64,000 bases of DNA, from IMG/VR virus record IMGVR_UViG_3300046665_000193, positions 1 through 64,000 of that record; one strand, given 5' to 3'. Origin of the DNA: a virus. A model generated the notes under the pieces. That model was not told the origin of the DNA. It made no database searches and saw only the letters and a list, made by a program, of their open reading frames with translations. How positions within the stretch are numbered: the stretch's first letter is position 1; each line of letters opens with the position of its first letter. A program made the translations under genes and the position numbers. Positions 7,215 to 59,869 of this stretch are shown piece after piece.

Positions 7215-8966
7215 ATGGTCACAAAGACTAAGGCCCATCTTAAGGGGACAACCAGCCTAACCAACGCTGATCCCCTTAAGGCGGACTTCCGCAACTTCCT
7301 CTGGATGGTCTGGAAGCATCTCAATCTTCCTGAGCCGACACCAGTCCAGTATGACATCGCCAAGTTCTTGCAGCACGGCCCGCGCCGCTGCGTCATCGAA
7401 GCCTTCCGAGGCGTCGGCAAGAGCTGGGTCACTTCGGCCTTCGTATGCTGGTTGCTGTATTGCGACCCGCAGCTCAAGATCATGGTTGTCTCCGCGAGCA
7501 AGACCCGCGCCGACGACTTCTCGACCTTTACCCTGCGGCTCATCAACGACATCGAGCTGCTACACTTCCTTCGCCCGACTGGCGATCAGCGCAACTCCAA
7601 GATCGCCTTCGACGTTGGCCCAGCCCAGCCTGACCATTCGCCATCGGTGAAGTCGGTCGGCATCACCGGCCAGCTCACGGGCTCCCGCGCCAACTACATC
7701 ATCGCCGACGATATCGAGGTGGTGAACAACTCCGCGACGCAGGCCCTCCGCGATAAGCTGAGCGAGCTGGTCAAGGAGTTCGACGCAGTGCTCAAGCCGG
7801 GTGGTCGCGTGATCTACCTCGGCACTCCTCAGTGCGAGCAGTCGCTCTACAACTCACTTCCAGAACGCGGCTACGTCGTCCGCATCTGGCCCGCCCGCTA
7901 CCCGACGCCCGACAAGCGGGAGAAGTACGGGGCCAAGCTGGCACCCTTCATCGCCAACAAGCTGGACCTCGACGAGAGCCTAGCGTGGCAACCCACGGAC
8001 CCTGTGCGGTTCGACGACGAAGACCTCAGTGAGCGAGAGATGTCCTACGGGCGCTCTGGCTTTGCCCTTCAGTTCCAACTCGACACGAGCCTTTCAGATG
8101 CGGATCGATATCCTCTTCGCTTGCGCGATCTTGTTGTTCTCAGCCTTGATCCTCTACGCGCACCTTCGGACCTCGCGTGGGCCTCAGGGCCGGATCAGCT
8201 CTTCAACGAAGTCCCTGCTGTCGGACTTAACGGTGATCATTACTACCGGCCGATTTTCGTAAGTAAGGACTATCTGGAATACGAAGGTTCCGTCATGTTC
8301 GTCGATCCCTCGGGACGCGGCAAGGACGAGACCACCTACGCTGTCGTGAAGATGCTCCATGGGCGTCTGTTCCTCACGGACATCGGGGCGTTCCTCGGTG
8401 GCTATGACGACAAGACCCTCGGCGACATCTGCATGGCCGCGCGTCGGCAGCATGTGAACCTGATCCTCTGCGAGCCCAACTACGGCGGCGGCATGTTCAC
8501 CCAGCTTCTCTCGGCCAAGGCCCAGCAGGTCTACCCGGTCGAGGTGAAGGACGCTGAGTGGGCCAAGGTCCAGAAGGAGATGCGGATCATCGACACGCTG
8601 GAGCCGATCATGAACCAGCACCGGCTCGTGGTCTGCCCGAGTGTCATTCAGAAGGACTACAACTCCACCGAGTCCTACACTGCAGAGAACCAGCAGGCGT
8701 ACCGGCTGTTCTATCAGATGACCCGGATCACTCGTGACAGGGGCGCTCTAAAGCATGACGACAGGCTAGACGCGGTCGCTGGTGCCGTGGCGCACTGGAC
8801 CGAGTACATGAACCGGGACAGCGAGAAGGCGCACCTGACGGCTCGTGAGGCCGCTGTGGACGCGGAGCTGGAGAAGTTCATGTCTCAGGTCATTGGCCGG
8901 GATCGGTTCAACACCGGAACCGAGGATCGCTTCGCCAGCTCCATCATGAGTGGCAGACGCCGCTAA
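7215..8966 (+). CDS. Terminase large subunit (gp19-like)
   Basis: AFRGVGKS Walker A, IIADD Walker B, VDPSGRGKDE, HDDRLDA. Confidence 0.95.
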   Translation: MVTKTKAHLKGTTSLTNADPLKADFRNFLWMVWKHLNLPEPTPVQYDIAKFLQHGPRRCVIEAFRGVGKSWVTSAFVCWLLYCDPQLKIMVVSASKTRADDFSTFTLRLINDIELLHFLRPTGDQRNSKIAFDVGPAQPDHSPSVKSVGITGQLTGSRANYIIADDIEVVNNSATQALRDKLSELVKEFDAVLKPGGRVIYLGTPQCEQSLYNSLPERGYVVRIWPARYPTPDKREKYGAKLAPFIANKLDLDESLAWQPTDPVRFDDEDLSEREMSYGRSGFALQFQLDTSLSDADRYPLRLRDLVVLSLDPLRAPSDLAWASGPDQLFNEVPAVGLNGDHYYRPIFVSKDYLEYEGSVMFVDPSGRGKDETTYAVVKMLHGRLFLTDIGAFLGGYDDKTLGDICMAARRQHVNLILCEPNYGGGMFTQLLSAKAQQVYPVEVKDAEWAKVQKEMRIIDTLEPIMNQHRLVVCPSVIQKDYNSTESYTAENQQAYRLFYQMTRITRDRGALKHDDRLDAVAGAVAHWTEYMNRDSEKAHLTAREAAVDAELEKFMSQVIGRDRFNTGTEDRFASSIMSGRRR

Positions 8967-8986
8967 GGCACAACCCTAGCTTGGAA

Positions 8987-9002
8987 TAGGTTGCACTTCT
9001 AC
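8987..9002 (+). promoter_or_regulatory. Putative phage RNAP promoter TAGGTTGCACNYCTAC
   Basis: Motif also at 2180, 18614, 28546, 45577, 51248 and 63339, always at module starts. Confidence 0.6.
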
Positions 9003-9214
9003 ACTATGCGCTCCCCTCCGTTACCCTATAGGGACACTGAGGGGGGCTGTAGGTTCAGTGAAGGTTCTGGGAGGTACCTTAGGGGTCCCCAATAAGAATA
9101 GACCCATAAGAGGGTCCCCTTAGTACGGTACCCCTTAGAGGGTGACTGAGGGGGGTCCCATTCGAATAGGCCCACCTAAGGGATGACCGAGGGGGTTCGT
9201 GTCGAAGGGGGATG

Positions 9215-9560
9215 CGAGACCCGCCCTATAGCCTCGCTGACGCTCGGCTCCAGGGCGGAAGTATGGCAAGGCTCTCTAGGAAGCCCGTACAGTGCCCTTT
9301 CACCGGCACCCATCCTGACCTAGCGGGCCACCTCAAAAGACGCACCACGGGCCACGCCTGTTGATCCTATAGTGTCTATGAAGGGAAGGCGAAGGTGGGT
9401 TGCGGATAGTTGGTGCAAATCTCTGAAGTGGGGGCTCGAACCCTAAGGTGGCGCGTTTCCCCCGTGGCCCCCTCGATCTCTCGTGCATCGCAGGCGCATT
9501 GTCACCGCACCTTGTCACCACGCCACGCTAAGCCATTGATATCATTGACCATGCACTGGA
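9215..9560. other. Putative genome-end / packaging (terminal repeat) region of A
   Basis: Non-coding, between TerL and early promoter; strongly conserved with 51611-51940; IHF consensus at 9529-9541. Confidence 0.55.
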
Positions 9561-9679
9561 TGATGCATCCGCTTTGCCCATGAAATGCAGGGGGCGGGGC
9601 CTATGCGGGCAGTGCGGCGCGTCGCGTTAGTTGGCCTGTCTCTTCATATCAGTGTTTTTGTGGATGCAGCCCGCGCCCT

Positions 9680-9723
9680 CAGATGCACGTCACATGCACC
9701 TCACATGCACGTCAGATGCACGG
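9680..9723 (+). repeat. Four tandem 11-bp repeats CASATGCACST
   Basis: cagatgcacgt cacatgcacct cacatgcacgt cagatgcacgg. Confidence 0.8.
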
Positions 9724-10005
9724 GCAGGGCGCACAAGGTGACAGGGGCAGGCCGCGCGGATTGTCACCTATAGTGCACCTCACATGCACCTAGCGTGTGC
9801 CGTATGCCTTCCATTGGCCTGCAGCGTCATAGCGGCCACCGTTCGCACGGGTTGCACTGTCATTCCACGTTAGCAGGGCCATCACAGCCACTGCGATTGC
9901 ACCCAAGATGACGATTTGTTTGGCCTTCATAACTACACTTCGACTCCAAAAGAGGTGACAAAACAGTGGATTATAAAATTGTTCTGTCTACCCATATTTT
10001 TCTTG

Positions 10006-10035
10006 TTGACCTTCCAATCGTAGCAAGTCTATAAC
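10006..10035 (+). promoter_or_regulatory. Sigma70-type early promoter with embedded operator-like motif
   Basis: TTGACC-18 bp-TATAAC with AT-rich upstream tract; conserved in B at 52478-52507. Confidence 0.7.
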
Positions 10036-10396
10036 CGTAGCCACTGGACACAACGTAAGTGACCTTCGGGTTCGTCCAGCTACGGCGTAGCAGGCCACGC
10101 AAGAGCATAAAAACCTGCAGCACGGTTGCTCCGATCCAACCGCTCTATGATGCACCTACGCGATTGCGCAAGGCCATTCAAGGGCGCTGCAGGACGGGCG
10201 CGGTCTACCGGCGATACACTTCCCAAATCAAACACGGAACGCCGCGACGATCCGCGCCTAACTGCACTTAGCAAGGCGTGATGCCATTACCTGCAACCTG
10301 AGCCGGTCACTAGCGGCGTTCAAGTTTGGCTTGCTGGCCAAAGACTGCATCTGTTTTTTTTTGTCCTTCACACCTACCAATCGTAGAGGGTCTACA

Positions 10397-13955: not shown

Positions 13956-14333
13956 ATGCCGACCAGAGGAACTATAAACGTGATGGGCGATAACACGGAG
14001 GAGAACGAGTGGGTTGACCGGCTTGCGCTGGTGATCGACGAGTTCCGGAAGATCAGTCAGGACATCACGGCCAATCAAATGCTGGTCCTGCTTCGCATAG
14101 GCCAGCAGCCCGGCATCACCCAGAACAAGCTAGGCGAACTCACGGGTCTCCGGGACGGCACCATCTCTCGCATCTGCGCACTGATGTCGGAGCGCGGTCA
14201 TCAGTCGCGTGAGGGCCTGAACGTTATCTCCATCAACCCAGTCCCCGGAGACTATCGCGCCAAGGGGCAGAAGCTCGTGGGCGACGGGCGACGCATGTTC
14301 AACAGCGTCAAGAACCTGATGACTTCGGACTAA
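13956..14333 (+). CDS. MarR-like winged-helix regulator (putative repressor)
   Basis: QMLVLLRIGQQPGITQNKLGELTGLRDGTISRI...DYRAK; directly upstream of integrase; start may be 13983. Confidence 0.75.
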   Translation: MPTRGTINVMGDNTEENEWVDRLALVIDEFRKISQDITANQMLVLLRIGQQPGITQNKLGELTGLRDGTISRICALMSERGHQSREGLNVISINPVPGDYRAKGQKLVGDGRRMFNSVKNLMTSD

Positions 14334-14352: not shown

Positions 14353-15468
14353 ATGGCGACCTACCCTAAAGGCAATAAGTTCATTACTAAATTTATGATC
14401 GACGGCGTCCGTCATACTAGGATGCATGATACAGAAGCTGAGGGCGAAGCGTGGGAGCTGCAAAGCCGCGCTAACCTAAAACTCGGTAAGGCTCTTCCAG
14501 TCGCCGAGAAGAAGATTGGCGGCAGCGACGCCGGTAACCTTGGAAACCTCCTCCGCGAGACGGCAACCCTTCACTGGGCCAAGGGCAAGGACAGCTCCAA
14601 GTGCGAGCTGAACGCCTCAACCTTTGTCAACTGGTGCGGCAAGGACATGCCGTCCCGCGATGCCTTTAAGCAGGCCAACATCGACGACTTCGTCGCATAC
14701 CTCATCAATGAGCGTGAGGTGAGTGGCTCGACGGTCAATCGGTACTGCTCGGCCATCCGGGTCATGGCCCAGCGGGTCATCAAGAAGGCTGACGAACTCC
14801 CCTCGTTCCCTAAGTATAAAGAGAGCAGGGGCCGCTTCCGGTTCTTCTCCCATGAGGAGGAGCAGCAGATCACCGCGCTCTGGACGATCTGGGAGCGGCA
14901 CGCTGAGCTGGACTTCCTCGTGTTCCTTATCGACACCGGAGCCCGCACCTACACCGAGGGTCAGGCCCTTAAGTGGGATGCCATCCACGCCGACCGCGCC
15001 ATCTTCTGGGACACCAAGAACGGCGGCTTCCGGGCGGTTCCTCTGTCCGAGAGGGCGAAGGCGGCGCTGGAGCGTCGGCGTAAACTAAAGGGTAACCAAG
15101 CCGGGCCGTTCTCCGATCTGGACAAGAGCCACATGCGTTGGCTCTGGGAGCGCACCCGTGCCCAGCTACCGCACCTTGAGGACGCCGTGCTGTACTGCAC
15201 CCGGCACACCTACGGGTCCCGCATGGTCATGAACGGTGTCCCGCTGTCGGTTCTCAAGAAGCTGATGGGCCACTCGGACATTAAGATGACTGAGCGCTAC
15301 GCCGTGTTCGAGGACAACGCGGCCTTCGCAGCCGCACTGACGGCCCTGAACGGCAACGGCTTTGCGCCCAAGGCCACACCCCTTTCGGTCGTGGTCGATA
15401 ACGGCCTGGCACCGGGTCCGATGGAGGTTCTCGCCAAGAACCTTGAACGGGCAGGGCAAGTGCAGTAG
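14353..15468 (+). CDS. int: Tyrosine integrase
   Basis: DTGAR, TKNG, YCTRHT, MGHSDIKMTERY catalytic motifs. Confidence 0.93.
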   Translation: MATYPKGNKFITKFMIDGVRHTRMHDTEAEGEAWELQSRANLKLGKALPVAEKKIGGSDAGNLGNLLRETATLHWAKGKDSSKCELNASTFVNWCGKDMPSRDAFKQANIDDFVAYLINEREVSGSTVNRYCSAIRVMAQRVIKKADELPSFPKYKESRGRFRFFSHEEEQQITALWTIWERHAELDFLVFLIDTGARTYTEGQALKWDAIHADRAIFWDTKNGGFRAVPLSERAKAALERRRKLKGNQAGPFSDLDKSHMRWLWERTRAQLPHLEDAVLYCTRHTYGSRMVMNGVPLSVLKKLMGHSDIKMTERYAVFEDNAAFAAALTALNGNGFAPKATPLSVVVDNGLAPGPMEVLAKNLERAGQVQ

Positions 15469-15500: not shown

Positions 15501-15554
15501 GAGTGACAAAACGGGTGACAATGGGGTGCCAAATGGCACCTCACTGGTGACAAT
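15501..15554 (+). repeat. att arm (P) GTGACA direct repeats of A
   Basis: GTGACA at 15503, 15515, 15547 and GTGCCA at 15526. Confidence 0.75.
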
Positions 15555-15639
15555 GCGGGCGTGGTGGAATTGGTAGACACAGCGGCTTTAGGTGCCGCCG
15601 CCGAAGGGTTTAGGGGTTCGAGTCCCTTCGCCCGCACCA
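15555..15639 (+). tRNA. tRNA-Leu(TAG), phage A-encoded
   Basis: 85 nt; acceptor GCGGGCG/CGCCCGC, anticodon arm GCGGC-TTTAGGT-GCCGC, long variable arm, GTTCGAGTC, CCA. Confidence 0.95.
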
Positions 15640-15651
15640 TCGTGAGAAGTG

Positions 15652-15660
15652 GATTTAGGT
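15652..15660 (+). other. att core at the A/B junction
   Basis: GATTTAGGT also at 58527-58535 and 59812-59820, each at a homology breakpoint. Confidence 0.85.
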
Positions 15661-15697
15661 TCCCGAGAGACTTACTCTACGATAGGCAACCTTCTAC

Positions 15698-15710
15698 TAA
15701 CATATTGATA
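15698..15710 (-). promoter_or_regulatory. IHF consensus site in att arm
   Basis: Reverse complement TATCAATATGTTA fits WATCAANNNNTTR. Confidence 0.55.
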
Positions 15711-15740
15711 GCAGTCCAGAAATGGGCTGCTTTTTCTTTT
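15711..15740 (+). terminator. Rho-independent terminator at prophage left end
   Basis: GCAGTCCA-GAAA-TGGGCTGC plus T tract; compensatory variant in C at 59870-59900. Confidence 0.8.
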
Positions 15741-15774
15741 GCCCAGTCATACTACGATATGAAGGTGGATATGG

Positions 15775-15817
15775 GTGACACCCGCTTTGGTGACAGTGGA
15801 GCGGTGACAAAGTGACA
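15775..15817 (+). repeat. att arm (P') GTGACA repeats of B
   Basis: GTGACA at 15775, 15790, 15804, 15812; identical block in C at 59935-59977. Confidence 0.75.
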
Positions 15818-16237
15818 AACGAGGAGAACAGACTGGAAACGAATGAAATCTGGGACTGGCAGTGCCGAATGCACCTCTGGTCCTGCTGGCTCTACGAGAT
15901 CGACGCCAAGCCCGCCCTCGACGACAGCGGCTACGACTGGCTCTGCAGGTTGCTCTCCAGCAACTACGGCAAGCTGCCCGACTGGTTCACCCAGCGCGTC
16001 ACCATGAGTGACCTCACCACCGGCACCGGCAGTGCCATCGCCAAGACCCTCACACCCGAAGAGATCGCAGCCGCCCGCTGGTGGCGCGACGAACACATAC
16101 CAGCCATGCAAAAGGAAGCTGATGAACGCCGCATTGAAATTGAGAGAAGAGCATCTGGAACAGCAGGCCCAGCACAAGGGCGCAAAGCGGGTAAGGGATC
16201 AGGTCGCAAAGGCAAAGGAACGCGGGCTCGGGGCTGA
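15812..16237 (+). CDS. Hypothetical protein resembling domain Ia of NAD-dependent DNA ligase
   Basis: LYEIDAKPALDDSGYDWLCRLL resembles YY..D.P.ISD.EYD.L; start uncertain (RBS gaggag precedes CTG 15833); overlaps RNAP start. Confidence 0.45.
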   Translation: MTNEENRLETNEIWDWQCRMHLWSCWLYEIDAKPALDDSGYDWLCRLLSSNYGKLPDWFTQRVTMSDLTTGTGSAIAKTLTPEEIAAARWWRDEHIPAMQKEADERRIEIERRASGTAGPAQGRKAGKGSGRKGKGTRARG

Positions 16238-18575
16238 CACTCCGGGTGGCGTCGCGCTCATGAAGCGGGCCATCGAGCCGCTCTCGACTGCCATCAAGAA
16301 CACGATCACCGATGCCCGGTCAGGCAAGGCCGGTCGCCGCCACGTTGCCATCGCCACTCTCGAAAAGATGGAACCCGACGTGATCGCCTACCTCACCACC
16401 CGCGAGGTGTTGAGCGGTGCCATGGATCAGGCCGGGCTCACCGCCACCGCCATCAAGATCGGCTCGGCGCTGGAAGAGGAACTGAGGCTGCAGGCGTTCG
16501 ATGAACAGCAGCCCGACCTCTACCACACCATCATGCGCCGCCTTAAGGAACGCGGAGCTGGGGCCGGGCATGCCCGCAAGGTGTTCGTGTTCGCGGCCAA
16601 CAAGCCCGACGCTCAGGTCGAGCTACCGCGCATCGTCAAGACCGAGAAGATGCACATCGGGGTGCGCCTGATCGAGCTGATGATCGAGGCCACCGGCTTC
16701 GTCGAGACGGTCACCGTGCGCGTCGGCAAGTCCAAGACCCGCTCCGTCATCCGCCCAACCGAGGCGGCAGCGAAATGGATGGAGGACAAGAACCTCCGCG
16801 CGGAACTGATCAGCCCGGCCTATGCGCCCATGGTGGTCCCGCCGCTGGACTGGGAGGGCGTCTCGGGCGGCGGCTACATCAGCCCATCGTTCAAGGCACT
16901 GCCGCTGGTCAAGAAGGCCAACAAGAAGCAGCACCGCGAGCTGCTGGAGCGGGCCGATCTGTCGCTTGTGCTGCGGGCTCTCAACGCCATCCAGCGCACG
17001 CCATGGCAGGTCAACCAGCAGGTTCTCGACGTGATGCAGGAGGTCTGGGACAAGAGCTACGACATCGCCATGCCGGGCCGAGAGGACAAGCTGCTGCCTC
17101 CGATGCCAGCCGGGCACGCCATCGCCGAGACCTCCGAGGAAGCGTGGGCGAACGTCAATCCCGATGCCAAGAAGGCATGGATGCGCGAAGCCCGCATGGT
17201 CTATGAGGGCAACGCCAGCTCCAAGGGCAAGCGGATGGGCATCAGCCAGATCATCCACACCGCGAAGGAACTGGCCGGGGAGCCTGAGATATACTTCCCC
17301 CACCAGCTCGACTTCCGGGGCCGGGCATACGCCGTGCCCATCGGGCTCAACCCGCAGGGCAGCGACCACGCCAAGGCGCTGCTGCACTTCGCACACGGCA
17401 AGGCGATCACCACGCCCCGCGCTGCGGGCTGGCTCGCGATCAACGGTGCCAACCTCTACGGCTTTGACAAGGCCGCGTTCGCCGACCGCATCGCATGGGT
17501 CGAGGAACGAGAGGAGCAGATCAAGTACACCGCAGAGAACCCTCTGGGCGACCTCTGGTGGACTGAGGCGGACAAGCCGTGGTGCTTCCTCGCGTGGTGT
17601 TTCGAGTATGCGAAATTCCTGGGGGAGGGTTACGGCTTTGTCTCGACCTACAACTGCTCGGTCGATGGAAGCTGCAACGGCCTGCAGCATTTCAGTGCCA
17701 TGCTCCGCGATCCTGTTGGTGGCGCTGCCGTCAACCTCGTGCCCGGCGATCTGCCTGCTGACATCTACCAGCGCGTGGCCAACCGCGTCATCGAGAAGCT
17801 TAAGGCCGAGGATGGCGACGACTGGGTGGCGCGGGGCTGGCTGGACTTCGGCATCAACCGCAAGATCACCAAGCGCCCGGTCATGGTGCTGCCCTACGGC
17901 GGCACGTTCAAGAGTTGCATGGAGTACGTTCGCGAGGCCGTAGGGGAACGCATCGCAGATGGTGCGGAGAACCCCTTCGGCGACGAGCTGGGCAAGACCA
18001 CGGCCACGCTCTCGCGCTTCGTATGGGACAGCATCGGCGACGTTGTCGTTGCTGCCCGCACGGCAATGGACTGGCTGCAGAAGTGTGCTCGCGTCGCGTC
18101 TAAGCATGGCGTGCCGCTGACATGGACGACGCCGTCAGGCTTCCCCGTGTTCCAGAGCTACATGGACATCACCCAGCGGCGCGTGAAGACCCGGCTGCAG
18201 GGCAGCTTGACGTACCTCTCCATTGCGGAGGAGGGCGACAAGATCGATGCGGGACGGCAGGCGCTGGCAGTGTCACCAAACTTCGTCCACTCCAAGGACG
18301 CGGCGGCAATGATGCTGACCATCGCACTGGCCCTCGACAATGGCGTCTCCGCGTTCGCCATGATCCATGACAGCTACGGCACCCACGCCGCCGACATGGA
18401 CATGCTCGCGGCCTGCCTGAGGCATGCGTTCGTTGACCTCTACGAGGAGCACAATGTCCTCGCCGAGTTCCTCGCCGCACTCCCTGATGCGGTACGGGCC
18501 GAGTGCCCGCCGCCACCACCGCTCGGATCGCTGGACATCCAAGGGGTGCTCCAGTCCGAGTTCTTTTTTGCCTAG
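16122..18575 (+). CDS. Single-subunit T7-like RNA polymerase
   Basis: DFRGRAY, DGSCNGLQH, RKITKRPVMVLPYG, IHDSYG; RBS aaggaag. Confidence 0.97.
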   Translation: MNAALKLREEHLEQQAQHKGAKRVRDQVAKAKERGLGADTPGGVALMKRAIEPLSTAIKNTITDARSGKAGRRHVAIATLEKMEPDVIAYLTTREVLSGAMDQAGLTATAIKIGSALEEELRLQAFDEQQPDLYHTIMRRLKERGAGAGHARKVFVFAANKPDAQVELPRIVKTEKMHIGVRLIELMIEATGFVETVTVRVGKSKTRSVIRPTEAAAKWMEDKNLRAELISPAYAPMVVPPLDWEGVSGGGYISPSFKALPLVKKANKKQHRELLERADLSLVLRALNAIQRTPWQVNQQVLDVMQEVWDKSYDIAMPGREDKLLPPMPAGHAIAETSEEAWANVNPDAKKAWMREARMVYEGNASSKGKRMGISQIIHTAKELAGEPEIYFPHQLDFRGRAYAVPIGLNPQGSDHAKALLHFAHGKAITTPRAAGWLAINGANLYGFDKAAFADRIAWVEEREEQIKYTAENPLGDLWWTEADKPWCFLAWCFEYAKFLGEGYGFVSTYNCSVDGSCNGLQHFSAMLRDPVGGAAVNLVPGDLPADIYQRVANRVIEKLKAEDGDDWVARGWLDFGINRKITKRPVMVLPYGGTFKSCMEYVREAVGERIADGAENPFGDELGKTTATLSRFVWDSIGDVVVAARTAMDWLQKCARVASKHGVPLTWTTPSGFPVFQSYMDITQRRVKTRLQGSLTYLSIAEEGDKIDAGRQALAVSPNFVHSKDAAAMMLTIALALDNGVSAFAMIHDSYGTHAADMDMLAACLRHAFVDLYEEHNVLAEFLAALPDAVRAECPPPPPLGSLDIQGVLQSEFFFA

Positions 18576-18653
18576 TCACCTTCAAAACGTAGAGTAGCTA
18601 TGCAAGGTAGGAATAGGTTGCACTCTCACCTAACCGAACGCTGAAAGGTTCAC

Positions 18654-18815
18654 ATGAAGCATTCACTGACCATCCGCATGGGCGCTGCCAACTGGGACGC
18701 TACGCTGTCCAACGGCACCCGCTTTGACTTCCGCTCGATGACCACCGCCGACCGCAAGAAGTGGTACGGGGCGTTCATGTCGTCGGTGCGCAAGATGTAC
18801 CGAGGGGCTCGCTGA
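18654..18815 (+). CDS. Small hypothetical protein
   Basis: MKHSLTIRMGAANWDA...; conserved in C at 63379-63540. Confidence 0.65.
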   Translation: MKHSLTIRMGAANWDATLSNGTRFDFRSMTTADRKKWYGAFMSSVRKMYRGAR

Positions 18816-19018
18816 TGCGGGAGACCCTGATCAACCTCGGCCTCTCAGTCGCACTGATGGGCATCACCATCATGGGCCTGCTGCTCCTCGGAGTGGAAGC
18901 CAAGACGATCCTGTCGTGGTTCGTCGTCATCTCCCTCGCGTCCGGCGTGGTCTGCGTCATCACCCTCGTGATGGAGTTCGTGGACACCATGCGGGCATGG
19001 CTCAACATCCTGCGGTGA
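18815..19018 (+). CDS. Small two-TM membrane protein
   Basis: Hydrophobic; coupled TGATG; diverged counterpart 63540-63743. Confidence 0.55.
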   Translation: MRETLINLGLSVALMGITIMGLLLLGVEAKTILSWFVVISLASGVVCVITLVMEFVDTMRAWLNILR

Positions 19019-19124
19019 CCGAGTTCATCTCGTTTCTCGCAGGCTTCGGGCTGGGGATCGGCGCGACCTCAGCCTTCGTCATCCGCGCAGCACTCAAGGA
19101 CATCAAGGAACTGTCTCAGCTCAC

Positions 19125-19388
19125 ATGATCAACCGTGACCAGATGACTAACGCCGACGCTCAGCTCGTTGCTGACGCTGGCATCGCCATCCTCGACCGGA
19201 TGCAGAACTACAAGCCGCACATCCAGCCACTGGCACTGTGCGCCGCGTTCCTCACTCTCGCCGCTCACATCCGCGTCCCTGCTCAGGACCTCTTCACGCT
19301 CACGACCAACATGCTGTCGGAGGAAGAGAACATCGCGGAGTTCAAGGCGCTGCGTGACTACGTCAAGTACGAGATCAAGCGTGCTTAG
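19125..19388 (+). CDS. Hypothetical phage protein
   Basis: Conserved with 63850 onward. Confidence 0.65.
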   Translation: MINRDQMTNADAQLVADAGIAILDRMQNYKPHIQPLALCAAFLTLAAHIRVPAQDLFTLTTNMLSEEENIAEFKALRDYVKYEIKRA

Positions 19389-19586
19389 GCTCTGGCCGGT
19401 CTGGCTGATCCTCGCCGCTGTCGTCATCGGGGCGCTGCCTCGCTGATGTCCCGCAACCTCTCACTCGCAATCCATATGTGGCGGCAGGGCTATCCAATCC
19501 CTGTTGATCTCCACACCGCACTCACCAACGAGGGGCTCAACGTGGCCCGCCTCGAACAGCGCTATCGCGCGTAAGGAATACACTGA

Positions 19587-20348
19587 ATGGCAAATGCAAA
19601 GCGTCCGCAGGCTCCCAAGGGCACGACCTTCAAGGGCATCTTCAAGTGGCCGAAGCTGACCGAACCTGACTACGGTTCGAAGGAGTTCCCCAAGCCCAAC
19701 GGCGAGTTCAGCACCAAGCTGGTCGGTCGCATGGATGATCCAGACGTGCAGGCGTTCATCGCCAAGTGGCAGCCGCTGCACGACGAAGCCATCGAGCGGG
19801 CCAAGGAAGAGTTCAAGGCCCTCAAGGTCGATGTCCGCAAGAAGCTCAAGGAAGTCACCGTCAACCCGCTCTACACTGAGCTGTACGACGAAGAGACCGA
19901 AGAGCCGACCGGCGAAGTCGAGTTCAAGTTCACGATGCAGTACAGCGGCGAATACAAGTCTGGTCCGAAGCAGGGCAAGAAGTGGTACCGCCGTCCCGGC
20001 ATCTTCGACGCCAAGGGCAACGAGATGAAGCCGACACCGTCCATCTGGGGCGGCACCAAGGGCCGCGTCGCGTTCGAGGTTGGCCTGAACAAAGAGAACA
20101 TGCCCGGCTACTTCATCCCCGGCACCGGCGCTGCGGGCCTGACCCTGCGTCTGCAGGCAGCTCGCATCCTCGAACTGGTCAGCGAAGGCCAGCGTGACGC
20201 CAACAGCTACGGCTTCGGCGAAGAGGAAGAGGGTTACGAATACGACCCGTCCTCGGTCGCATCGAACGACGACGCTGGCACCACCGATCAGACGGATGGT
20301 GAAGCGGGTGGCGAAGGCAACGACGCTGGCTCGAACCCCGACTTCTAA
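19587..20348 (+). CDS. Single-stranded DNA-binding protein (gp2.5-like)
   Basis: Acidic tail ending DF; LRLQAARILELV; position before endonuclease. Confidence 0.85.
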   Translation: MANAKRPQAPKGTTFKGIFKWPKLTEPDYGSKEFPKPNGEFSTKLVGRMDDPDVQAFIAKWQPLHDEAIERAKEEFKALKVDVRKKLKEVTVNPLYTELYDEETEEPTGEVEFKFTMQYSGEYKSGPKQGKKWYRRPGIFDAKGNEMKPTPSIWGGTKGRVAFEVGLNKENMPGYFIPGTGAAGLTLRLQAARILELVSEGQRDANSYGFGEEEEGYEYDPSSVASNDDAGTTDQTDGEAGGEGNDAGSNPDF

Positions 20349-20775
20349 GCTTCGGGGAATTGTTGAGGGCTACCGCAGCGGTCTTGAAGAGAAGGTCGCT
20401 GCGCAGCTCGCATCCCTTGAGGTGCCCGCTCACTACGAGCAGTACAAACTGAACTACGAAGTCCCGGCCCGTAAGGCCACCTACACTCCAGACTTCGTGC
20501 TCCCCAACGGGATCATCATCGAGACCAAGGGTCGCTTCGTCACCGCTGATCGCAAGAAGCATCAGCTCGTGAAGGCAAGTCACCCGCAGCTCGACATCCG
20601 GTTCGTGTTCTCGAACCCCAACAACCGCATCGGCAAGAAGAGCGAGACCACATACGGCATGTGGTGCAGCAAGCTCGGCTTCCTCTTCGCCAAAGCATTC
20701 ATCCCACGCGAGTGGGTGAACGAACCCGTGTGCCCGAAGCGGCTCGCGGCGAACGCAGCAGCGTTCAAGAAGTAA
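20296..20775 (+). CDS. Endonuclease I / Holliday junction resolvase (gp3-like)
   Basis: YRSGLEE, YTPDFVLPNGIIIETKGRF, LDIRFVF; start approximate. Confidence 0.92.
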   Translation: MVKRVAKATTLARTPTSKLRGIVEGYRSGLEEKVAAQLASLEVPAHYEQYKLNYEVPARKATYTPDFVLPNGIIIETKGRFVTADRKKHQLVKASHPQLDIRFVFSNPNNRIGKKSETTYGMWCSKLGFLFAKAFIPREWVNEPVCPKRLAANAAAFKK

Positions 20776-20844
20776 CGACCGGGGAGGGCACAGGCTCTCC
20801 CCACCATCTCAGCTCATAAGCATCCACTGGAAAGAGAACTACAC

Positions 20845-21264
20845 ATGACGAACAAGATCAATCAAGGCGACTGCGTTGAAGTGCTCGACACCTCTGACAA
20901 CCGCTCGTCCGCCACGTTCAAGACCAGCATCGGCAAGCGCTACATTGTCGATGAGGTTCGCGGCAACTTCCTCAGCCTGCGCGGCGTGAAGCGTAAGGGC
21001 TGGAGCATGAGCCGCTTCAAGGTCGTCTCACCGAACTATCCGAAGGCGGACGAGGTCGTCGTCGGCCAGTACATCATCATCCTCCGCGATGAGAACGGTG
21101 TGCTGCTCCCGGCAAAGAACCCGAAGGTCTACCTGACCGACACGCAAGCCATGAAGATCGGCGAGGTAATGGCCAAGAAGCACGGTGGCACCTTCCAAGT
21201 GTTCAAGGCCATCGGCGAATACGACATGCCGAAGATCACCACCCCGACCTTCCGCAAGCTCTGA
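20845..21264 (+). CDS. Hypothetical protein
   Basis: ORF with phage codon usage inside operon. Confidence 0.6.
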   Translation: MTNKINQGDCVEVLDTSDNRSSATFKTSIGKRYIVDEVRGNFLSLRGVKRKGWSMSRFKVVSPNYPKADEVVVGQYIIILRDENGVLLPAKNPKVYLTDTQAMKIGEVMAKKHGGTFQVFKAIGEYDMPKITTPTFRKL

Positions 21265-21312
21265 TCCCACCAACAGCTCACACAACAGCAACCTCTTAAG
21301 GAACCATCACAC

Positions 21313-21549
21313 ATGGCAAAAGACTTCCGCATGGTCGGCAACAAGCCCCAGACCCACATGCTCCTCGATCACTTCTCGGACAAGTCGTCCATCACTGCAG
21401 TCGAGGCGGCGGCGCTGTATCGCATCCGCTCGCTGTCCCGTCGCATCGTCGATCTGTCGAACGATGGCCACCGCTTCTCCAAGCAGCACAGTGTGGACCC
21501 GACCGGGCAGCGTTACGTTCGCTATCACTACCTCGGAGCGTCTGCCTAA
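21313..21549 (+). CDS. Small winged-helix DNA-binding protein
   Basis: SITAVEAAALYRIRSLSRRIVDL pattern. Confidence 0.6.
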   Translation: MAKDFRMVGNKPQTHMLLDHFSDKSSITAVEAAALYRIRSLSRRIVDLSNDGHRFSKQHSVDPTGQRYVRYHYLGASA

Positions 21550-22091
21550 TGTGGAAGCGCTTCACCGCACTGACCATCGCACTCTCCCTCGCTCTCGCCA
21601 CCACGGCGGGAGCACGGGCAGGCACCAGCAGCTTCTCCAGTTCGCGGAGTTCGTTCTCCAGCTCGTCGAGCTACCGGAGCACGCCAAGCTACTCCTCGCC
21701 GAATATGCGCGTCACGCCCAGCTACACCGCTCCGAAGGTGAGTGTGCCAAGCGTGCCCGCACCGAAGCTGAGCGGCACCGGCATCACGCCACCGGCAGCA
21801 GCACCCACCGTGCCGAGCAAGCCTGCCGATACCACGGCCTCGCGCCGCTGGTGGTCATCCTCGACGAGCACGCCAGCCAAGCCGACCTACACGCCATCGG
21901 CACCGGCAGCTCCAGCGCCCGTCGTGGTGCAGCAGAGCGGTAGCTCGTGGACGACGTGGCTCTTCGCATGGTGGCTCTTCTCCGATCACAAGAAGGCCGA
22001 GGCCAAGCCTGCAGAGGCAAAGGGCCAGGTCGAGAAGTGTGATCCCAAAGCGACCATCGCCGAGAAAGTCTGCAAGGAAGGAAGCAAGTAA
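21549..22091 (+). CDS. Signal-peptide, Ser/Pro-rich envelope protein
   Basis: MWKRFTALTIALSLALATTAGARA; WTTWLFAWWLF segment. Confidence 0.55.
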   Translation: MWKRFTALTIALSLALATTAGARAGTSSFSSSRSSFSSSSSYRSTPSYSSPNMRVTPSYTAPKVSVPSVPAPKLSGTGITPPAAAPTVPSKPADTTASRRWWSSSTSTPAKPTYTPSAPAAPAPVVVQQSGSSWTTWLFAWWLFSDHKKAEAKPAEAKGQVEKCDPKATIAEKVCKEGSK

Positions 22092-22094
22092 CGC

Positions 22095-22367
22095 ATGCGC
22101 TACAAAGAACTGACGGCAGCACTGAAAGCTGCAGGACATCTCGACGCCCTCAAGCTGGTCGAGGGCATGTACGTCAAGCAGAAGCGACGCCCGATGCGCA
22201 TGAGTGGTCGACACCTGACCATGGAGGATGCCGTTGCGATCCACAAACTGTATCGCTTCACGCGGCTGAACCATGGACAGATCGCCAATCAGCTCGGACT
22301 GAACATCGGTCAGGTGACGCACGTCCTGAATGCGGAAGCCTTCCCCGAGGCTGCGCAGCATGCATGA
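22095..22367 (+). CDS. Hypothetical HTH protein
   Basis: LNHGQIANQLGLNIGQVTHVL. Confidence 0.5.
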   Translation: MRYKELTAALKAAGHLDALKLVEGMYVKQKRRPMRMSGRHLTMEDAVAIHKLYRFTRLNHGQIANQLGLNIGQVTHVLNAEAFPEAAQHA

Positions 22368-22540
22368 CACCCACCGCGACCATCCCGCCCGACGCCTTCG
22401 CCCCCAACGGGTGAAGCTCGTCGAGTATCTCCTGCGCAAACGTGGTCGGTTCTACTACGGAGCCGCCGACGAGTTCATCGATCAGGTTGGCAAGTTTCAT
22501 CCTGACGTGCTGCGCGATGCCGACGCGATCCTAGAAGCGA

Positions 22541-26985: not shown

Positions 26986-27173
26986 GAGCATCTGAACTAC
27001 ACAACAAGATCACCGCGAAGATCGTCTTCCACAACAAGGCGAAGGTTGACGCGGCGAAGCTGGCACGGCGCTACATGAACTGCCACGACTTCAATGAAGC
27101 TGCCCGCTGGGCTGATGCCGCGAAGGCGCATCGGTTCGCTGCAGACAGCCTGCGGGAATTGCTCGGTCAGTGA
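26982..27173 (+). CDS. Hypothetical protein
   Basis: Coupled to exonuclease start (GTGA). Confidence 0.5.
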   Translation: MRASELHNKITAKIVFHNKAKVDAAKLARRYMNCHDFNEAARWADAAKAHRFAADSLRELLGQ

Positions 27174-28982: not shown

Positions 28983-28984
28983 CC

Positions 28985-57227: not shown

Positions 57228-58343
57228 TTGGCGACCTATCCTAAGGGAAACAAATTCATCACCAAGTTCATGATCGACGGGGTTCGACATACCCGGATGC
57301 ATGACACAGAAGCCGAAGGCGAAGCGTGGGAGCTGCAAAGCCGCGCGAACCTCAAACTAGGCAAAGCTATTCCAGTCGCCGAAAAGAAGATCGGTGGCAG
57401 CGACGCTGGAGCGCTCGGCAACCTTCTCCGCGAAACCGCAACCCTCCACTGGGCCAAGGGCAAGGACAGCTCAAAGTGTGAGCTGAATGCCACCACCTTC
57501 GTCAATTGGTGCGGCAAGGACATGCCCTCCCGCGACGCCTTCAAGCAGGACAACATCGACGACTTCGTCGCCTACCTCATCAACGAGCGTGAGGTATCCG
57601 GCTCGACGGTCAATCGTTACTGTTCCGCCATCCGGGTCATGGCTCAGCGGATCATCAAAAAGTCCGAAGACCTCCCCACGTTCCCAAAGTATAAAGAGAG
57701 CAGGGGCCGGTTCCGGTTCTTCTCCCATGAGGAGGAGCGGCAGATCACCGCGCTCTGGACCCTCTGGGAGCGGTACGCTGAGCTGGACTTCCTCATCTTC
57801 CTGATCGACACCGGAGCCCGCACCTACACCGAGGGACAGGCACTTAAGTGGGTCGATATCCACGCCGACCGGGCCATCTTCTGGGAGACCAAGAACGGCG
57901 GGTTCCGTGCGGTTCCGCTAAGCGAGCGGGCCAAGGCTGCTCTGGAGCGCCGCCGTAAACTAAAGGGTAACCAAGCCGGGCCGTTCAGCGACCTCGACAA
58001 GAGCCACATGCGCTGGCTCTGGGAGAAGACCCGTGGCCAGTTACCGCACCTTGAGGATGCCGTCCTGTATTGCACCCGGCACACCTACGGTTCCCGAATG
58101 GTCATGAACGGGGTGCCCCTGTCGGTCCTCAAGAAGCTGATGGGCCACTCGGACATTAAGATGACTGAGCGCTACGCCGTGTTCGAGGACAACGCCGCCT
58201 TCGCCGCAGCGCTCACCGCCCTCAACAGCAACGGCTTTGCCCCCAAGGCCGCGCCCTTGTCGGTCGTGGTCGATAACGAACCGGCACCGGGTCCCATGGA
58301 GGTTCTGGCCAAGAACCTTGAACGGGCAGGGCAAGTGCAGTAG
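57228..58343 (+). CDS. int: Tyrosine integrase
   Basis: Same catalytic motifs and length (371 aa) as 14353-15468. Confidence 0.93.
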   Translation: MATYPKGNKFITKFMIDGVRHTRMHDTEAEGEAWELQSRANLKLGKAIPVAEKKIGGSDAGALGNLLRETATLHWAKGKDSSKCELNATTFVNWCGKDMPSRDAFKQDNIDDFVAYLINEREVSGSTVNRYCSAIRVMAQRIIKKSEDLPTFPKYKESRGRFRFFSHEEERQITALWTLWERYAELDFLIFLIDTGARTYTEGQALKWVDIHADRAIFWETKNGGFRAVPLSERAKAALERRRKLKGNQAGPFSDLDKSHMRWLWEKTRGQLPHLEDAVLYCTRHTYGSRMVMNGVPLSVLKKLMGHSDIKMTERYAVFEDNAAFAAALTALNSNGFAPKAAPLSVVVDNEPAPGPMEVLAKNLERAGQVQ

Positions 58344-58429
58344 ACACCCCGGCCATGTCGTTCGGTCGCGAGACCGGGTGACAATGCGGGTGACAAAGGG
58401 GTGCGAAATGGCACCTCTTTGGTGACAAT

Positions 58430-58514
58430 GCGGGCGTGGCGGAATTGGTAGACGCAGCGGCTTTAGGTGCCGCCGCCGTAAGGTTTAGGGGTTCGAGTCC
58501 CTTCGCCCGCACCA
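58430..58514 (+). tRNA. tRNA-Leu(TAG), phage B-encoded
   Basis: 85 nt cloverleaf, GCGGC-TTTAGGT-GCCGC, CCA; compensatory D-stem change relative to A. Confidence 0.95.
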
Positions 58515-58687
58515 TCGAAGCCACGGGATTTAGGTGTTGGTGCCAAATCCTCTAGCTTTCGCAGGTGATACGCCCCGTTTCGCCGACTTCCCAAGTTGCT
58601 TCAATCACATCAGTAGATCAGTAATCTACTGCGCTTGGCAGGTTATTTTCCTGACAGGTCAAAAGGTGACAATAAGAGGTGACAAAT

Positions 58688-59514
58688 TCACCTATCGACG
58701 AGCGCTTCTGGCTGATTTGTGGATTTGGCCAGTCGCTTCAACTCATTGATCGTTTCGATTACTCGATCCATCGGCTCGACGACTGTGTATCCTGAGTTGT
58801 GTCGTCGTTGACTTACCTCTTGACGATCAACTGAGCTATACAGCTTCTCGACAAATCCGATATTTCTGATTGCGACTCCGACGGAGTGTCGATCCTCGGC
58901 CCTCAGCACCAAGCCACCACTGTTACCGGGATAGGTTGGACAATCGATGATGATCTTGTTGCTCGGCGGCTTGCCAGCTACGATACCCGAGCGCAGCAGC
59001 GGGTATCCTCGGTCAAGCGCATCTTCCTTTTCAGCGAGTGAGGTTGGGTAGCCCATCATGAAGATCGGCTCCCCCGGTATCACCGACGCATACAAGGCGG
59101 TCATGCTAAGAGGCGTACCTTGCAGGTATGTCGCCGGGTCGTAACCAATTTGAGTGACGCCTTCGACGAGGTCCATTCGATACCGATTAACCCCCGCATC
59201 AGGCTGAGGTCTCATCGTTCCAATTCGACAGACGGCCACATCGGTGAGACCATCGGGATGCCTGCAAAAATTACCGTCTGCAAAAAGCCTCGGACTGTCG
59301 AGCGAATGCTTGACTGTCTTAGTGAGCGTTACACTATCGAGTGCGGTGATTATCACCGGATCAGTGAAGAGTTCTAATTTGTTTTTTAACAGAACATGCG
59401 CTGCCGAAACGAGATAGACGTTCTCGTTGTCGTAGAGATGGACCCGCTTCCTGTTGTGCCTTTTATCTCGATGAGGGCTGGGTAAGATAAGTAGTTGAGG
59501 TCCCTATTCGGCAC
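58688..59514 (-). pseudogene. Trypsin-like serine protease, frameshifted at 59443-59445 (or sequencing error)
   Basis: YLVSAAHVL (His), TDVAV (Asp), PGNSGG (Ser) in one frame; N-terminus GTG 59514 ...IEIKGTTGSG in another frame, joined by adding one G. Confidence 0.75.
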
Positions 59515-59530
59515 GAGTACGCCCCCAAAA

Positions 59531-59615
59531 TGGTGCCCGGCGAGGGACTCGAACCCCCACACCTTTCAGCGACGGTACCTAAAACCGTTGCGTCTACCAA
59601 TTCCGCCAGCCGGGC
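59531..59615 (-). tRNA. tRNA-Leu(TAG) of element X
   Basis: Acceptor GCCCGGC/GCCGGGC, anticodon arm ACGGT-TTTAGGT-ACCGT, GTTCGAGTC, CCA. Confidence 0.95.
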
Positions 59616-59869
59616 ACGGGGCATTCCGATACACAATTGAGCGGTGGATGTCTCGACATAATCCACTGTTCGTCGTATTGGCGTCACCGGGTGACAAATC
59701 AGGTGTGAAATGGGTGACATTTTGCACCTGATGATGACAGTGCAGGTATCGCCGATCTAAATAAGCTCAGCGATTACGGGAGCTTAGGCGTCTCACGGTT
59801 TTGCGCCACGAGATTTAGGTTCCCGCGTCACTTATACTACGATTAGCAACTACATACTAACATATTGAG

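What the first reader, a model, noticed from the sequence alone, without database searches (positions are those of the whole stretch)
15501..15665. Complete replacement tRNA-Leu(TAG) embedded inside attP, with a recoded anticodon stem
Seen: A and B place a full 85-nt tRNA between the arm repeats and the core, and X carries a third, differently recoded one. The core is GA-TTTAGGT-TCC, while the carried tRNAs have GCGGC-TTTAGGT-GCCGC and ACGGT-TTTAGGT-ACCGT. No tRNA 3' half follows any core. Known: many tyrosine integrases cross over in the 7-bp anticodon loop and normally restore the gene with a duplicated fragment. From memory, alphaproteobacterial tRNA-Leu(TAG) often has CTGGA-TTTAGGT-TCCAG. 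Inference: these elements break the host tRNA and complement it with an integration-resistant copy, which could make the host dependent on keeping at least one unit.
Basis: partly seen in the sequence, partly recalled or inferred. Interest (0 to 1): 0.78.

Follow-up and report, generated by a model that had tools for sequence, protein, structure and literature searches.

The report
Phage attP carrying replacement tRNA-Leu
A T7-like temperate phage of soil alphaproteobacteria inserts into the anticodon loop of the host's leucine tRNA(UAG) gene, cuts it in two without repairing it, and brings its own complete copy next to the insertion site; this trick ("tRNA-dependent lysogeny") was published in 2024, also for this phage group, so this is a clear new example, not a new principle.

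Summary
At 15555-15639 a complete 85-nt tRNA-Leu(TAG) lies between three GTGACAA repeats and a 13-bp core, GGATTTAGGTTCC (15652-15664). That core equals the anticodon stem-loop of native alphaproteobacterial tRNA-Leu(TAG). A second copy lies at 58430-58514. A third, different copy lies inverted in the integrase-less cassette X (59531-59615). No tRNA half follows any core in the window.

Relatives show what happens on integration. Split native tRNA halves flank the element in Rhodopseudomonas palustris XCP (a TAA variant), in genome G337, in an isolate assembly and in several metagenome or virus contigs. No tRNA is rebuilt at these junctions. In 26 loci the carried tRNA's anticodon loop (TAG, TAA or CAA) recurs as the core.

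This is tRNA-dependent lysogeny (Guerrero-Bustamante & Hatfull 2024). It is already reported for Lo5R7ANS-like prophages of Sinorhizobium meliloti (PMC11476347). This scan has also noted the phenomenon in more than 150 other genomes.

The "recoded stem gives integration resistance" idea is not supported as a rule: some relatives carry tRNAs that share 11-13 bp with their own core. Host dependence is supported, because integrase-less cassettes hold the only intact tRNA-Leu(TAG) found in G337.

Whether the contig is a chromosomal prophage array or an assembly walk over co-occurring phage genomes cannot be decided.

The parts
13956..14333 (+). MarR-family regulator gene directly upstream of the integrase, in the same order as in phages Lo5R7ANS and RHEph01
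   Evidence: Pfam MarR_2, E 3.8e-8; synteny
14353..15468 (+). Tyrosine integrase of unit A (371 aa)
   Evidence: Pfam Phage_integrase, E 1.2e-12; 30% identical to the Lo5R7ANS integrase
15503..15553 (+). P-arm: three GTGACAA repeats (15503, 15515, 15547), putative arm-type integrase sites at -151, -139 and -107 from the core loop
   Evidence: the same offsets in unit B, L015 and L016, and near-identical offsets in Lo5R7ANS
15555..15639 (+). Complete carried tRNA-Leu(TAG), 85 nt, anticodon stem GCGGC/GCCGC
   Evidence: ARAGORN; Rfam tRNA 53 bits; cloverleaf kept through compensatory changes among 13 carried tRNAs
15652..15664 (+). attP common core GGATTTAGGTTCC, which equals the anticodon stem-loop of native tRNA-Leu(TAG); the loop TTTAGGT is 15654-15660
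   Evidence: junctions in relatives break here
15710..15741 (+). Terminator-like hairpin with a T-run in the P' arm, conserved in unit C and in the R. palustris attL
   Evidence: (z -2.46)
15775..15818 (+). P'-arm: four GTGACA(A) repeats at +121, +136, +150 and +158 from the core loop
   Evidence: identical offsets in Lo5R7ANS, L048, L015, L016 and unit C; +121 and +149 in the R. palustris attL
16008..18575 (+). T7-type single-subunit RNA polymerase, the first gene of unit B after attP
   Evidence: Pfam RNA_pol, E 1.8e-106
57228..58343 (+). Tyrosine integrase of unit B
   Evidence: Pfam; 94% identical to integrase A
58378..58428 (+). P-arm GTGACAA repeats of unit B
58430..58514 (+). Carried tRNA-Leu(TAG) of unit B
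58527..58536 (+). Core at the B|X junction (GGATTTAGGT); the sequence to its right switches to the X-type P' arm
   Evidence: in run X1 a contig joins 58526 directly to 59812 without X
58537..59811 (.). Cassette X, without an integrase. It has a left arm with GTGACAA at +137 and +150, ORF 58688-59356 (-) with a weak trypsin-like / PDC-S45 match, tRNA-Leu(TAG) 59531-59615 (-), and a right arm with GTGACA at -123 and -100.
   Evidence: the same X (0 mismatches, 1 gap) lies between native tRNA-Leu halves in an isolate assembly; a variant is in G337
59812..59823 (+). Core at the X|C junction (GATTTAGGTTCC), followed by the P' arm of unit C

Best explanation
The stretch is the attP region of a temperate T7-like (Autographiviridae-type) phage of Rhizobiales-like alphaproteobacteria that uses tRNA-dependent lysogeny. 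The tyrosine integrase recombines a 9-14 bp core, identical to the anticodon loop and adjoining stem bases of the host's tRNA-Leu(UAG) gene, with that gene. attP holds neither a 5' nor a 3' tRNA half, so integration leaves the host gene in two dead pieces. One piece is at attL and the other at attR, about 43 kb apart. A complete cognate tRNA-Leu(UAG) sits 12 bp from the core, between the P-arm integrase sites and the core. It ends up at attR and takes over decoding. Shown here: the anatomy; the split, unrepaired host genes in relatives; and the strict match between the carried anticodon loop and the core. Inferred: that the carried tRNA is expressed and needed for lysogen survival, and that the GTGACAA repeats bind the integrase.
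For: (1) Anatomy in the window.
(2) The cultured phages Lo5R7ANS and RHEph01 have the same layout: MarR, integrase, GTGACA repeats, tRNA-Leu(tag), core AGATTTAGGTT, RNA polymerase.
(3) In 26 loci with a tRNA-Leu beside an integrase homologue, the tRNA's own 7-nt anticodon loop recurs 1-210 nt downstream. This holds for four different loops: TTTAGGT, CTTAGGA, CTTAAAA and CTCAAAA.
(4) Host junctions. In R. palustris XCP the native tRNA-Leu(TAA) 5' half lies at attL and the 3' half at attR, 42.3 kb apart. ARAGORN calls no tRNA at attL, and the only full-length tRNA-Leu(TAA) found in that genome is the prophage's. L003 (integrase 77% identical), L024, L025 and L044 show a native 3' half directly after the core. 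L147 shows a native 5' half fused at the core to a P' arm homologous to window 15665-15830.
(5) G337 and an isolate assembly hold integrase-less X-type cassettes between the two native halves. The other Leu tRNAs found in G337 are GAG, CAG and CAA.
(6) Thirteen carried tRNAs keep the cloverleaf, with compensatory changes in 17 of 23 pairs.
(7) GTGACA sites keep fixed offsets from the core across integrases only 30-44% identical.
(8) Published precedent: PMC10865867 (experimental, actinobacteriophages) and PMC11476347 (Lo5R7ANS-like prophages inactivate and replace tRNA-Leu(UAG) in S. meliloti AK21 and RU11/001).
Against: The window's own contig (78,980 bp) never reaches host DNA, so the integration of these particular units is inferred from relatives and from L147. 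No expression or essentiality data exist for this phage group. A search for an attR holding the exact A/B-type tRNA end plus a native 3' half found nothing in metagenome or virus contigs. The genome-wide check for other tRNA-Leu copies was a BLAST-type search, not a full tRNA scan.
Confidence: 0.85

Rival explanations
1. The carried tRNA's anticodon stem has been recoded so that the integrase cannot use it as attB. This would protect the replacement gene from superinfecting or resident elements.
For: In 17 of 28 rows the carried tRNA shares only the 7-nt loop with its own core, with both flanking bases differing. Among TAG-type lineages about 7 of 9 lack the A-T closing pair that the core has, whereas 18 of 29 native genes have it. 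All three carried tRNAs in the window are intact although several integrases are encoded nearby.
Against: For random stems, 0/0 flanking identity is expected about three times in four, so 17 of 28 is not an excess. L037 and L039 (13 bp), L089 (12 bp, a native-type CTGGA/TCCAG stem), L021 (12 bp) and L045 (11 bp) share as much with their own core as real attP/attB pairs do. GCGGC/GCCGC and CCGGC/GCCGG stems occur in chromosomal-looking genes (L131, L103), so capture from another host explains the difference equally well. PMC11476347 found the carried gene 97.6% identical to an Octadecabacter gene. The lineages are few and not independent.
Confidence: 0.3
2. The tRNA is carried mainly for lytic growth, either for codon supply or as a decoy or replacement against host anticodon nucleases. 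On this reading its closeness to attP is incidental.
For: Many lytic phages carry tRNA-Leu genes. Lo5R7ANS has RNA-ligase genes annotated as 'tRNA splicing ligase' right after the core. PMC10865867 raises the anti-defence idea.
Against: CTA makes up only 2.8% of Leu codons in 17 large ORFs of unit B. The carried anticodon loop always matches the core, across TAG, TAA and CAA, which codon supply does not predict. Integrase-less remnants keep the tRNA while all lytic genes are gone.
Confidence: 0.08
3. On the setting, not the tRNA. The contig is not a chromosomal tandem prophage array. It is a walk of the assembler, or a real concatemer, over co-occurring related phage genomes. The A|B junction is then simply a free phage's attP, and B|X|C is a phage attP that has picked up X.
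For: Unit B is a mosaic. Window 15840-33623 is 99% identical to the DTR-complete virus genome G382. From about 33626 onward the sequence is 96-100% identical to G383. The A|B arms equal G382's attP (L015), and the B and C arms equal G383's attP (L016), which lacks X. Run X1 has the X-less junction at the same depth as its flanks. None of the four runs laid shows the B|X junction.
Against: The B|X and X|C junctions share only 9-13 bp with other forms. That is too short for a k-mer assembler to invent, so molecules with X between phage arms must exist. Tandem polylysogens and recombinant prophages are also natural. The data do not discriminate between the two readings.
Confidence: 0.45

Closest known systems
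Lo5R7ANS-like intact prophages in Sinorhizobium meliloti AK21 and RU11/001 (PMC11476347, 2024; restated in PMC12429752)
   Same: The same phage group (T7-like, MarR-integrase-tRNA-RNA polymerase), the same target (the central part of tRNA-Leu(UAG)), the host gene inactivated, and a prophage-borne tRNA-Leu(UAG) that is unlike the host's gene.
   Different: The integrase is only 30% identical. The likely host family differs: the native halves equal those of R. palustris and G337. That paper did not describe the core, the arm sites, the tRNA's place inside attP, the TAA and CAA variants or integrase-less cassettes, as far as the passages I read show.
tRNA-dependent lysogeny of actinobacteriophages (Fionnbharth K4, LeBron L1, Cain K6, Gaia X, Gordonia CQ2/DL; PMC10865867)
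   Same: A tyrosine integrase, an attB inside a tRNA gene, an 8-17 bp common core in the anticodon region, no tRNA rebuilt, and a cognate phage tRNA. Gaia also targets a tRNA-Leu (CAA).
   Different: Those are siphoviruses of Actinobacteria. In Fionnbharth the tRNA overlaps gene 37, away from attP. Here it lies 12 bp from the core, inside the arm-site span. The need for the tRNA was shown there by experiment and not here.
Canonical tRNA-targeting phage integration that rebuilds the gene (e.g. mycobacteriophages Boilgate and Omega in PMC10865867; P-SSP7 and HTVC019P-type T7-like phages, from my own knowledge)
   Same: A tyrosine integrase, a crossover in or near the anticodon loop, and T7-like temperate phages that target tRNA-Leu.
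   Different: Those attP sites carry the 3' part of the tRNA (cores of about 40-50 bp). Here there is none: only 13 bp match, and no T-arm follows any core.
Cis-mobilizable elements (CIMEs) and site-specific accretion next to integrative elements (from my own knowledge; compare PMC13651849, phage-ICE tandems, abstract only)
   Same: X has att-type ends and arm sites but no integrase. It is found both alone in a host attB and between the arms of a phage attP.
   Different: X's defining cargo is the replacement tRNA itself. Its mobilisation has not been shown.

Membership tests
tRNA-dependent lysogeny (Guerrero-Bustamante & Hatfull 2024) | Phage-encoded tyrosine integrase next to attP | tested here: met
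   Pfam Phage_integrase for 14353-15468 and 57228-58343
tRNA-dependent lysogeny (Guerrero-Bustamante & Hatfull 2024) | attB overlaps a host tRNA gene | tested here: met
   The core equals the native tRNA-Leu(TAG) stem-loop. L147 attL carries the window-type P' arm. There are further attR and attL junctions in L003, L004, L006, L024, L025, L044 and G337. For the window's own units this is inferred, because the contig holds no host flank.
tRNA-dependent lysogeny (Guerrero-Bustamante & Hatfull 2024) | A short common core, so that no functional tRNA is rebuilt at attL or attR | tested here: met
   The identity with the native gene is 13-14 bp. ARAGORN calls no tRNA at attL of L006 or L147, nor at the G337 junctions, and no second tRNA at the attR of L003, L024, L025 or L044.
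tRNA-dependent lysogeny (Guerrero-Bustamante & Hatfull 2024) | [quoted passage not shown] | tested here: met
   TAG with TAG, TAA with TAA and CAA with CAA, in 26 loci
tRNA-dependent lysogeny (Guerrero-Bustamante & Hatfull 2024) | The phage tRNA is required for viable lysogens | not testable with these tools
   Indirect only: the element's copy is the only intact tRNA-Leu(TAA) found in R. palustris XCP and the only intact tRNA-Leu(TAG) found in G337.
Temperate T7-like phages of the Lo5R7ANS / RHEph01 kind (Autographiviridae) | A single-subunit RNA polymerase, with MarR-integrase-tRNA-Leu upstream of it | tested here: met
Canonical tRNA-rebuilding attP | attP contains the tRNA segment that is displaced on integration | tested here: not met
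   There is no T-arm or acceptor sequence beside any core.
Cis-mobilizable integrase-less element (for X) | att sites at both ends, no recombinase of its own, moved by a helper's integrase | tested here: inconclusive
   The ends and the lack of an integrase are shown. The same X occurs in two settings. Movement by a helper's integrase was not tested.

The most novel reading that the evidence does not exclude
Integrase, arm sites, tRNA and core are packed within about 300 bp. The system therefore works as a ratchet. Once a phage has split the host's only tRNA-Leu(UAG) gene, the host must keep the carried copy. Decaying prophages then shrink to integrase-less att-tRNA-att cassettes such as X. 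These cassettes permanently replace the native gene, keep working att sites, serve as landing pads for new phages, and can ride along with them (X is found between the arms of a phage attP). This would make T7-like phages a driver of tRNA-Leu gene turnover in Rhizobiales.
Probability: 0.4. Interest if true: 0.7.

Novelty: new member of a known kind. Interest (0 to 1): 0.45.

Why it matters
The finding extends tRNA-dependent lysogeny, proven by experiment only in actinobacteriophages, to a whole clade of T7-like temperate phages of soil and rhizosphere alphaproteobacteria. It comes with an unusually clean comparative signal: the carried anticodon always equals the core. It explains why these phages carry a single tRNA-Leu. 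It predicts that deleting the tRNA makes them obligately lytic, which matters for anyone engineering rhizobiophages or building integration vectors from them. It also shows, through the integrase-less cassettes, how a phage can leave a bacterium permanently dependent on foreign tRNA DNA.

Tried and rejected
The large-contig homologues P0018, P0019 and P0022 could therefore not be fetched that way.
- A literature search for 'Lo5R7ANS' at word start found nothing. The relevant paper surfaced through the term 'tRNA-dependent lysogeny'.
- The pattern for an attR with the exact A/B-type tRNA end plus a native 3' half gave 0 hits in metagenome and virus contigs. The attL pattern gave 0 hits in virus contigs.
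- In one search, hits L148, L149 and L151 are intact native tRNAs. L150 is a tRNA-Leu split by some other insert.
- The G078 'half tRNA' hit proved to be an intact, divergent tRNA-Leu(TAG).
- Minimum-free-energy folds of the single tRNAs do not differ from shuffles (z -0.7 to -1.1) and were not used.
- Laying four runs did not recover the B|X junction. Parts without cover in those runs are not evidence.
- The idea that the core is only a leftover of a duplicated carried tRNA, with integration happening elsewhere, was rejected because of the attL and attR junctions.
- L101 (genome G041, flagged as unpublished) was left out of every analysis.

Full report
**What is in the window.** The window is the first 64 kb of a 78,980-bp virus record. 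ARAGORN finds three tRNA-Leu(tag) genes, at 15555-15639 (+), 58430-58514 (+) and 59531-59615 (-). All three pass the Rfam tRNA model (53, 53.8 and 51.4 bits against a gathering score of 29).

The first two each follow the same set of features:
- a MarR-type gene;
- a 371-aa tyrosine integrase (14353-15468 and 57228-58343);
- three GTGACAA repeats.

Each is followed after 12 nt by GGATTTAGGT(TCC). Beyond the first core come four more GTGACA(A) repeats and a T7-type RNA polymerase gene (16008-18575).

The window thus holds three related units of about 43 kb: the end of unit A, all of unit B and the start of unit C. They are 75-95% identical to each other. Between B and C lies a 1.27-kb stretch without an integrase, X (58537-59811), bounded by the same core on both sides.

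The tRNAs of A and B differ at four positions. X's tRNA differs from them by paired changes in the acceptor stem and the anticodon stem. GTGACAA is over-represented: 23 copies against 7.0 expected, and no shuffle reaches 23. No T-arm motif occurs outside the three tRNAs, so no tRNA half follows any core. The one nuance is that at the B|X junction the core is kept only up to GGATTTAGGT.

**What kind of element it is.** The integrase's nearest named relatives are those of temperate T7-like phages: Mesorhizobium phage Lo5R7ANS, Rhizobium phages RHEph01, RHEph21, Pasto and TRX32-1, Pseudomonas phage LUZ100, roseophages and pelagiphages.

Lo5R7ANS has the same layout base for base. It has GTGACAA repeats, a full tRNA-Leu(tag), then the core CAGATTTAGGTTCC 17 nt on, then GTGACAA repeats, with the RNA polymerase gene about 1.7 kb further on after two RNA-ligase genes. 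RHEph01 has the tRNA inverted and upstream of the integrase, as in X, and the core GCAGATTTAGGTTG downstream.

The GTGACA sites keep fixed offsets from the core: -151, -139 and -107, and +121, +136, +150 and +158. This holds in the window, Lo5R7ANS, L048, L015 and L016, and in part in R. palustris, X and G337, although the integrases are only 30-44% identical. That is what arm-type integrase sites would show. The tRNA (-99 to -15) therefore really does lie inside attP. A second GTGACAA cluster lies in a non-coding region near 9.5 kb and 52 kb, so a role as operator for the MarR protein cannot be excluded.

**What happens on integration.** The contig itself never reaches host DNA, so I looked at relatives.

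*R. palustris XCP.* In locus L004 a 44%-identical integrase is followed by:
- three GTGACAA repeats;
- a full tRNA-Leu(TAA);
- the core CTTAAAATCC;
- directly after the core, the 3' half of a second tRNA-Leu(TAA).

The matching 5' half lies 42.3 kb away. It is fused at the core to a P' arm homologous to window 15665-15830, and ARAGORN calls no tRNA there. No other full-length tRNA-Leu(TAA) was found in that genome.

*Other junctions.*
- L003 (a MAG contig; integrase 77% identical to A's) and the virus contigs L024 and L044 show GATTTAGGTTCC followed at once by AGTG..., the T-arm and the acceptor end of a native tRNA-Leu(TAG).
- L025 shows the same for TAA.
- The metagenome contig L147 is the mirror image: a native 5' half joined through the core to a P' arm of the window's own type, with no tRNA called.

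The host gene is therefore split and not regenerated at either end.

**Anticodon and core vary together.** In all 26 loci where a tRNA-Leu lies beside an integrase homologue, the tRNA's own 7-nt anticodon loop recurs once more just downstream. This holds for TTTAGGT and CTTAGGA (TAG), CTTAAAA (TAA) and CTCAAAA (CAA). When the clade changes target isoacceptor, the carried tRNA changes with it. This is the strongest comparative argument that the carried gene is there to replace the target. Thirteen carried tRNAs keep the cloverleaf through compensatory changes in 17 of 23 pairs, so the genes are under selection. CTA is only 2.8% of Leu codons in unit B, which speaks against a codon-supply role.

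**X and host dependence.** Laying public runs on 56500-61500 gave two results.

In a rhizosphere metagenome (X1), a contig joins 58526 straight to 59812. That is B's P arm, the core and C's P' arm, without X, at the same depth as the flanks.

In a run of isolate size ("organism A", 6.9 Mb of contigs), a 166,630-nt contig holds X with 0 mismatches and 1 gap. On its left is GCGGGCGTGGCGGAATTGGTAGACGCGCT. On its right are AGTGACGAAAGTTGTG, the T-arm and the acceptor end. These are the two halves of a native tRNA-Leu(TAG) identical to that of R. palustris.

A species-representative genome of the same family, G337, has a shorter X-type cassette of about 780 bp. Its tRNA and P arm are 99% identical to X, and it sits in the same place with the same downstream flank. 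The only other Leu tRNAs found in G337 are GAG, CAG and CAA.

These hosts therefore appear to depend on the cassette's tRNA, with no integrase left to restore the native gene. X's P arm is homologous to that of L003. X lies both alone in a host attB and between the two arms of a phage attP. It therefore either served as a landing site for phages or moves with them. I could not tell which.

**The recoding idea.** The carried stems (GCGGC/GCCGC, ACGGT/ACCGT, CTTGG/CCAAG, TCAGG/CCTGA and others) mostly differ from the bases that flank the loop in the core. In 17 of 28 rows only the 7-nt loop is shared. But a random stem would do this about three times in four.

Five lineages share 11-13 bp with their own core, as much as true attP/attB pairs: L037 and L039 with 13 bp, L089 with 12 bp and a native-type CTGGA/TCCAG stem, L021 with 12 bp, and L045 with 11 bp.

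Native alphaproteobacterial stems vary as well. CTGGA/TCCAG occurs in 8 of 29 genes and an A-T closing pair in 18 of 29. CCGGC/GCCGG (L103) and GCGGC/GCCGC (L131) occur in chromosomal-looking genes.

Against the native A-T frequency, the roughly 7 of 9 TAG lineages without A-T are a weak excess. That is my own binomial estimate, about 0.02, from few and related lineages. Capture of the tRNA from another host, as PMC11476347 reports (97.6% identity to Octadecabacter genes), explains the differences as well. I rate integration resistance by recoding as possible but unproven, about 0.3.

**Is the contig a prophage array?** Unit B is a mosaic. Window 15840-33623 is 99% identical to the DTR-complete virus genome G382. 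From about 33626 onward the best match, at 96-100%, is another complete genome, G383. The A|B junction has G382's attP arms (L015). The B and C arms are those of G383's attP (L016), which has no X.

The contig could be a real tandem, recombinant polylysogen. It could also be a walk over co-occurring circular or concatemeric genomes. The B|X and X|C joints share too few bases with other forms to be assembler inventions, so molecules with X between phage arms do exist. Whether they lie in a chromosome is open. This does not affect the reading of the tRNA and attP.

**Comparison with what is known.** The mechanism is tRNA-dependent lysogeny, defined and proven by experiment in actinobacteriophages (PMC10865867). 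Its features are a tyrosine integrase, an 8-17 bp core in a tRNA gene, no reconstruction, and a cognate phage tRNA needed for viable lysogens. For this phage group, PMC11476347 already reports two Lo5R7ANS-like prophages in S. meliloti. They inactivate tRNA-Leu(UAG) by integrating in its central part and carry a replacement gene. PMC12429752 restates this. This scan itself holds at least 165 notes on similar elements in other genomes.

- the clade-wide rule that the carried anticodon equals the core, including TAA and CAA variants;
- the tRNA's position inside attP, between the arm sites and the core, whereas in Fionnbharth it lies several genes away;
- the integrase-less cassettes;
- a test of the recoding idea.

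**Verdict.** I class it as a new member of a known kind.

Noticed in passing
window 58537-59811; L124 (G337:C16:203272-206565): The integrase-less cassette X occurs, with 0 mismatches and 1 gap, alone between native tRNA-Leu(TAG) halves in an isolate-size assembly. A ~780-bp variant with a different small ORF is in species-representative genome G337. It looks like the minimal remnant of a decayed prophage, kept because it holds the only tRNA-Leu(TAG).
   Followed up: partly
window ~33620-33630: Unit B switches here from 99% identity with the complete virus genome G382 to 96-100% identity with another complete genome, G383. B is therefore either a natural recombinant or an assembly chimera.
   Followed up: partly
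window 9499-9961 and 51907-52434: There are extra GTGACAA clusters, mostly on the minus strand, in a non-coding region rich in other short repeats (ATGCACGTCAC and ATGCACCTCAC). It lies near the putative phage genome end and early region. The motif may therefore also, or instead, be an operator.
   Followed up: no
window 58688-59356 (-): The only ORF of X (222 aa) has weak matches to Trypsin_2 (E 1.4e-5, just below the Pfam cut-off) and to the PADLOC defence candidate PDC-S45 (E 1.5e-7). It may be a defence cargo.
   Followed up: partly
contig 78522-78605 (beyond the window's end): ARAGORN reports a tRNA-like gene with a four-base 'anticodon' (tcga) in unit C only.
   Followed up: no
L131 (G149:C1:1119374-1122451): A chromosomal-looking tRNA-Leu(TAG) has the same GCGGC/GCCGC anticodon stem as the tRNA carried by units A and B, with no second core within 1.5 kb. 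It may be the source of the phage gene, or an old replacement that has become 'native'.
   Followed up: no
L150 (Ga0316206_1015142, 759-785): A tRNA-Leu(TAG) 5' half is joined at the same core to a quite different sequence, and no tRNA is called. This seems to be a different element using the same site.
   Followed up: no
L001 (Lo5R7ANS 7233-10050): Lo5R7ANS carries a restriction-modification pair between the integrase and the tRNA, and two genes annotated 'tRNA splicing ligase' right after the core. The attP neighbourhood is thus a cargo slot, possibly linked to tRNA damage and repair.
   Followed up: no
window 15710-15741; 59870-59900: A conserved terminator-like hairpin lies in the P' arm. 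After integration it would sit just behind the orphaned native 5' half at attL.
   Followed up: partly
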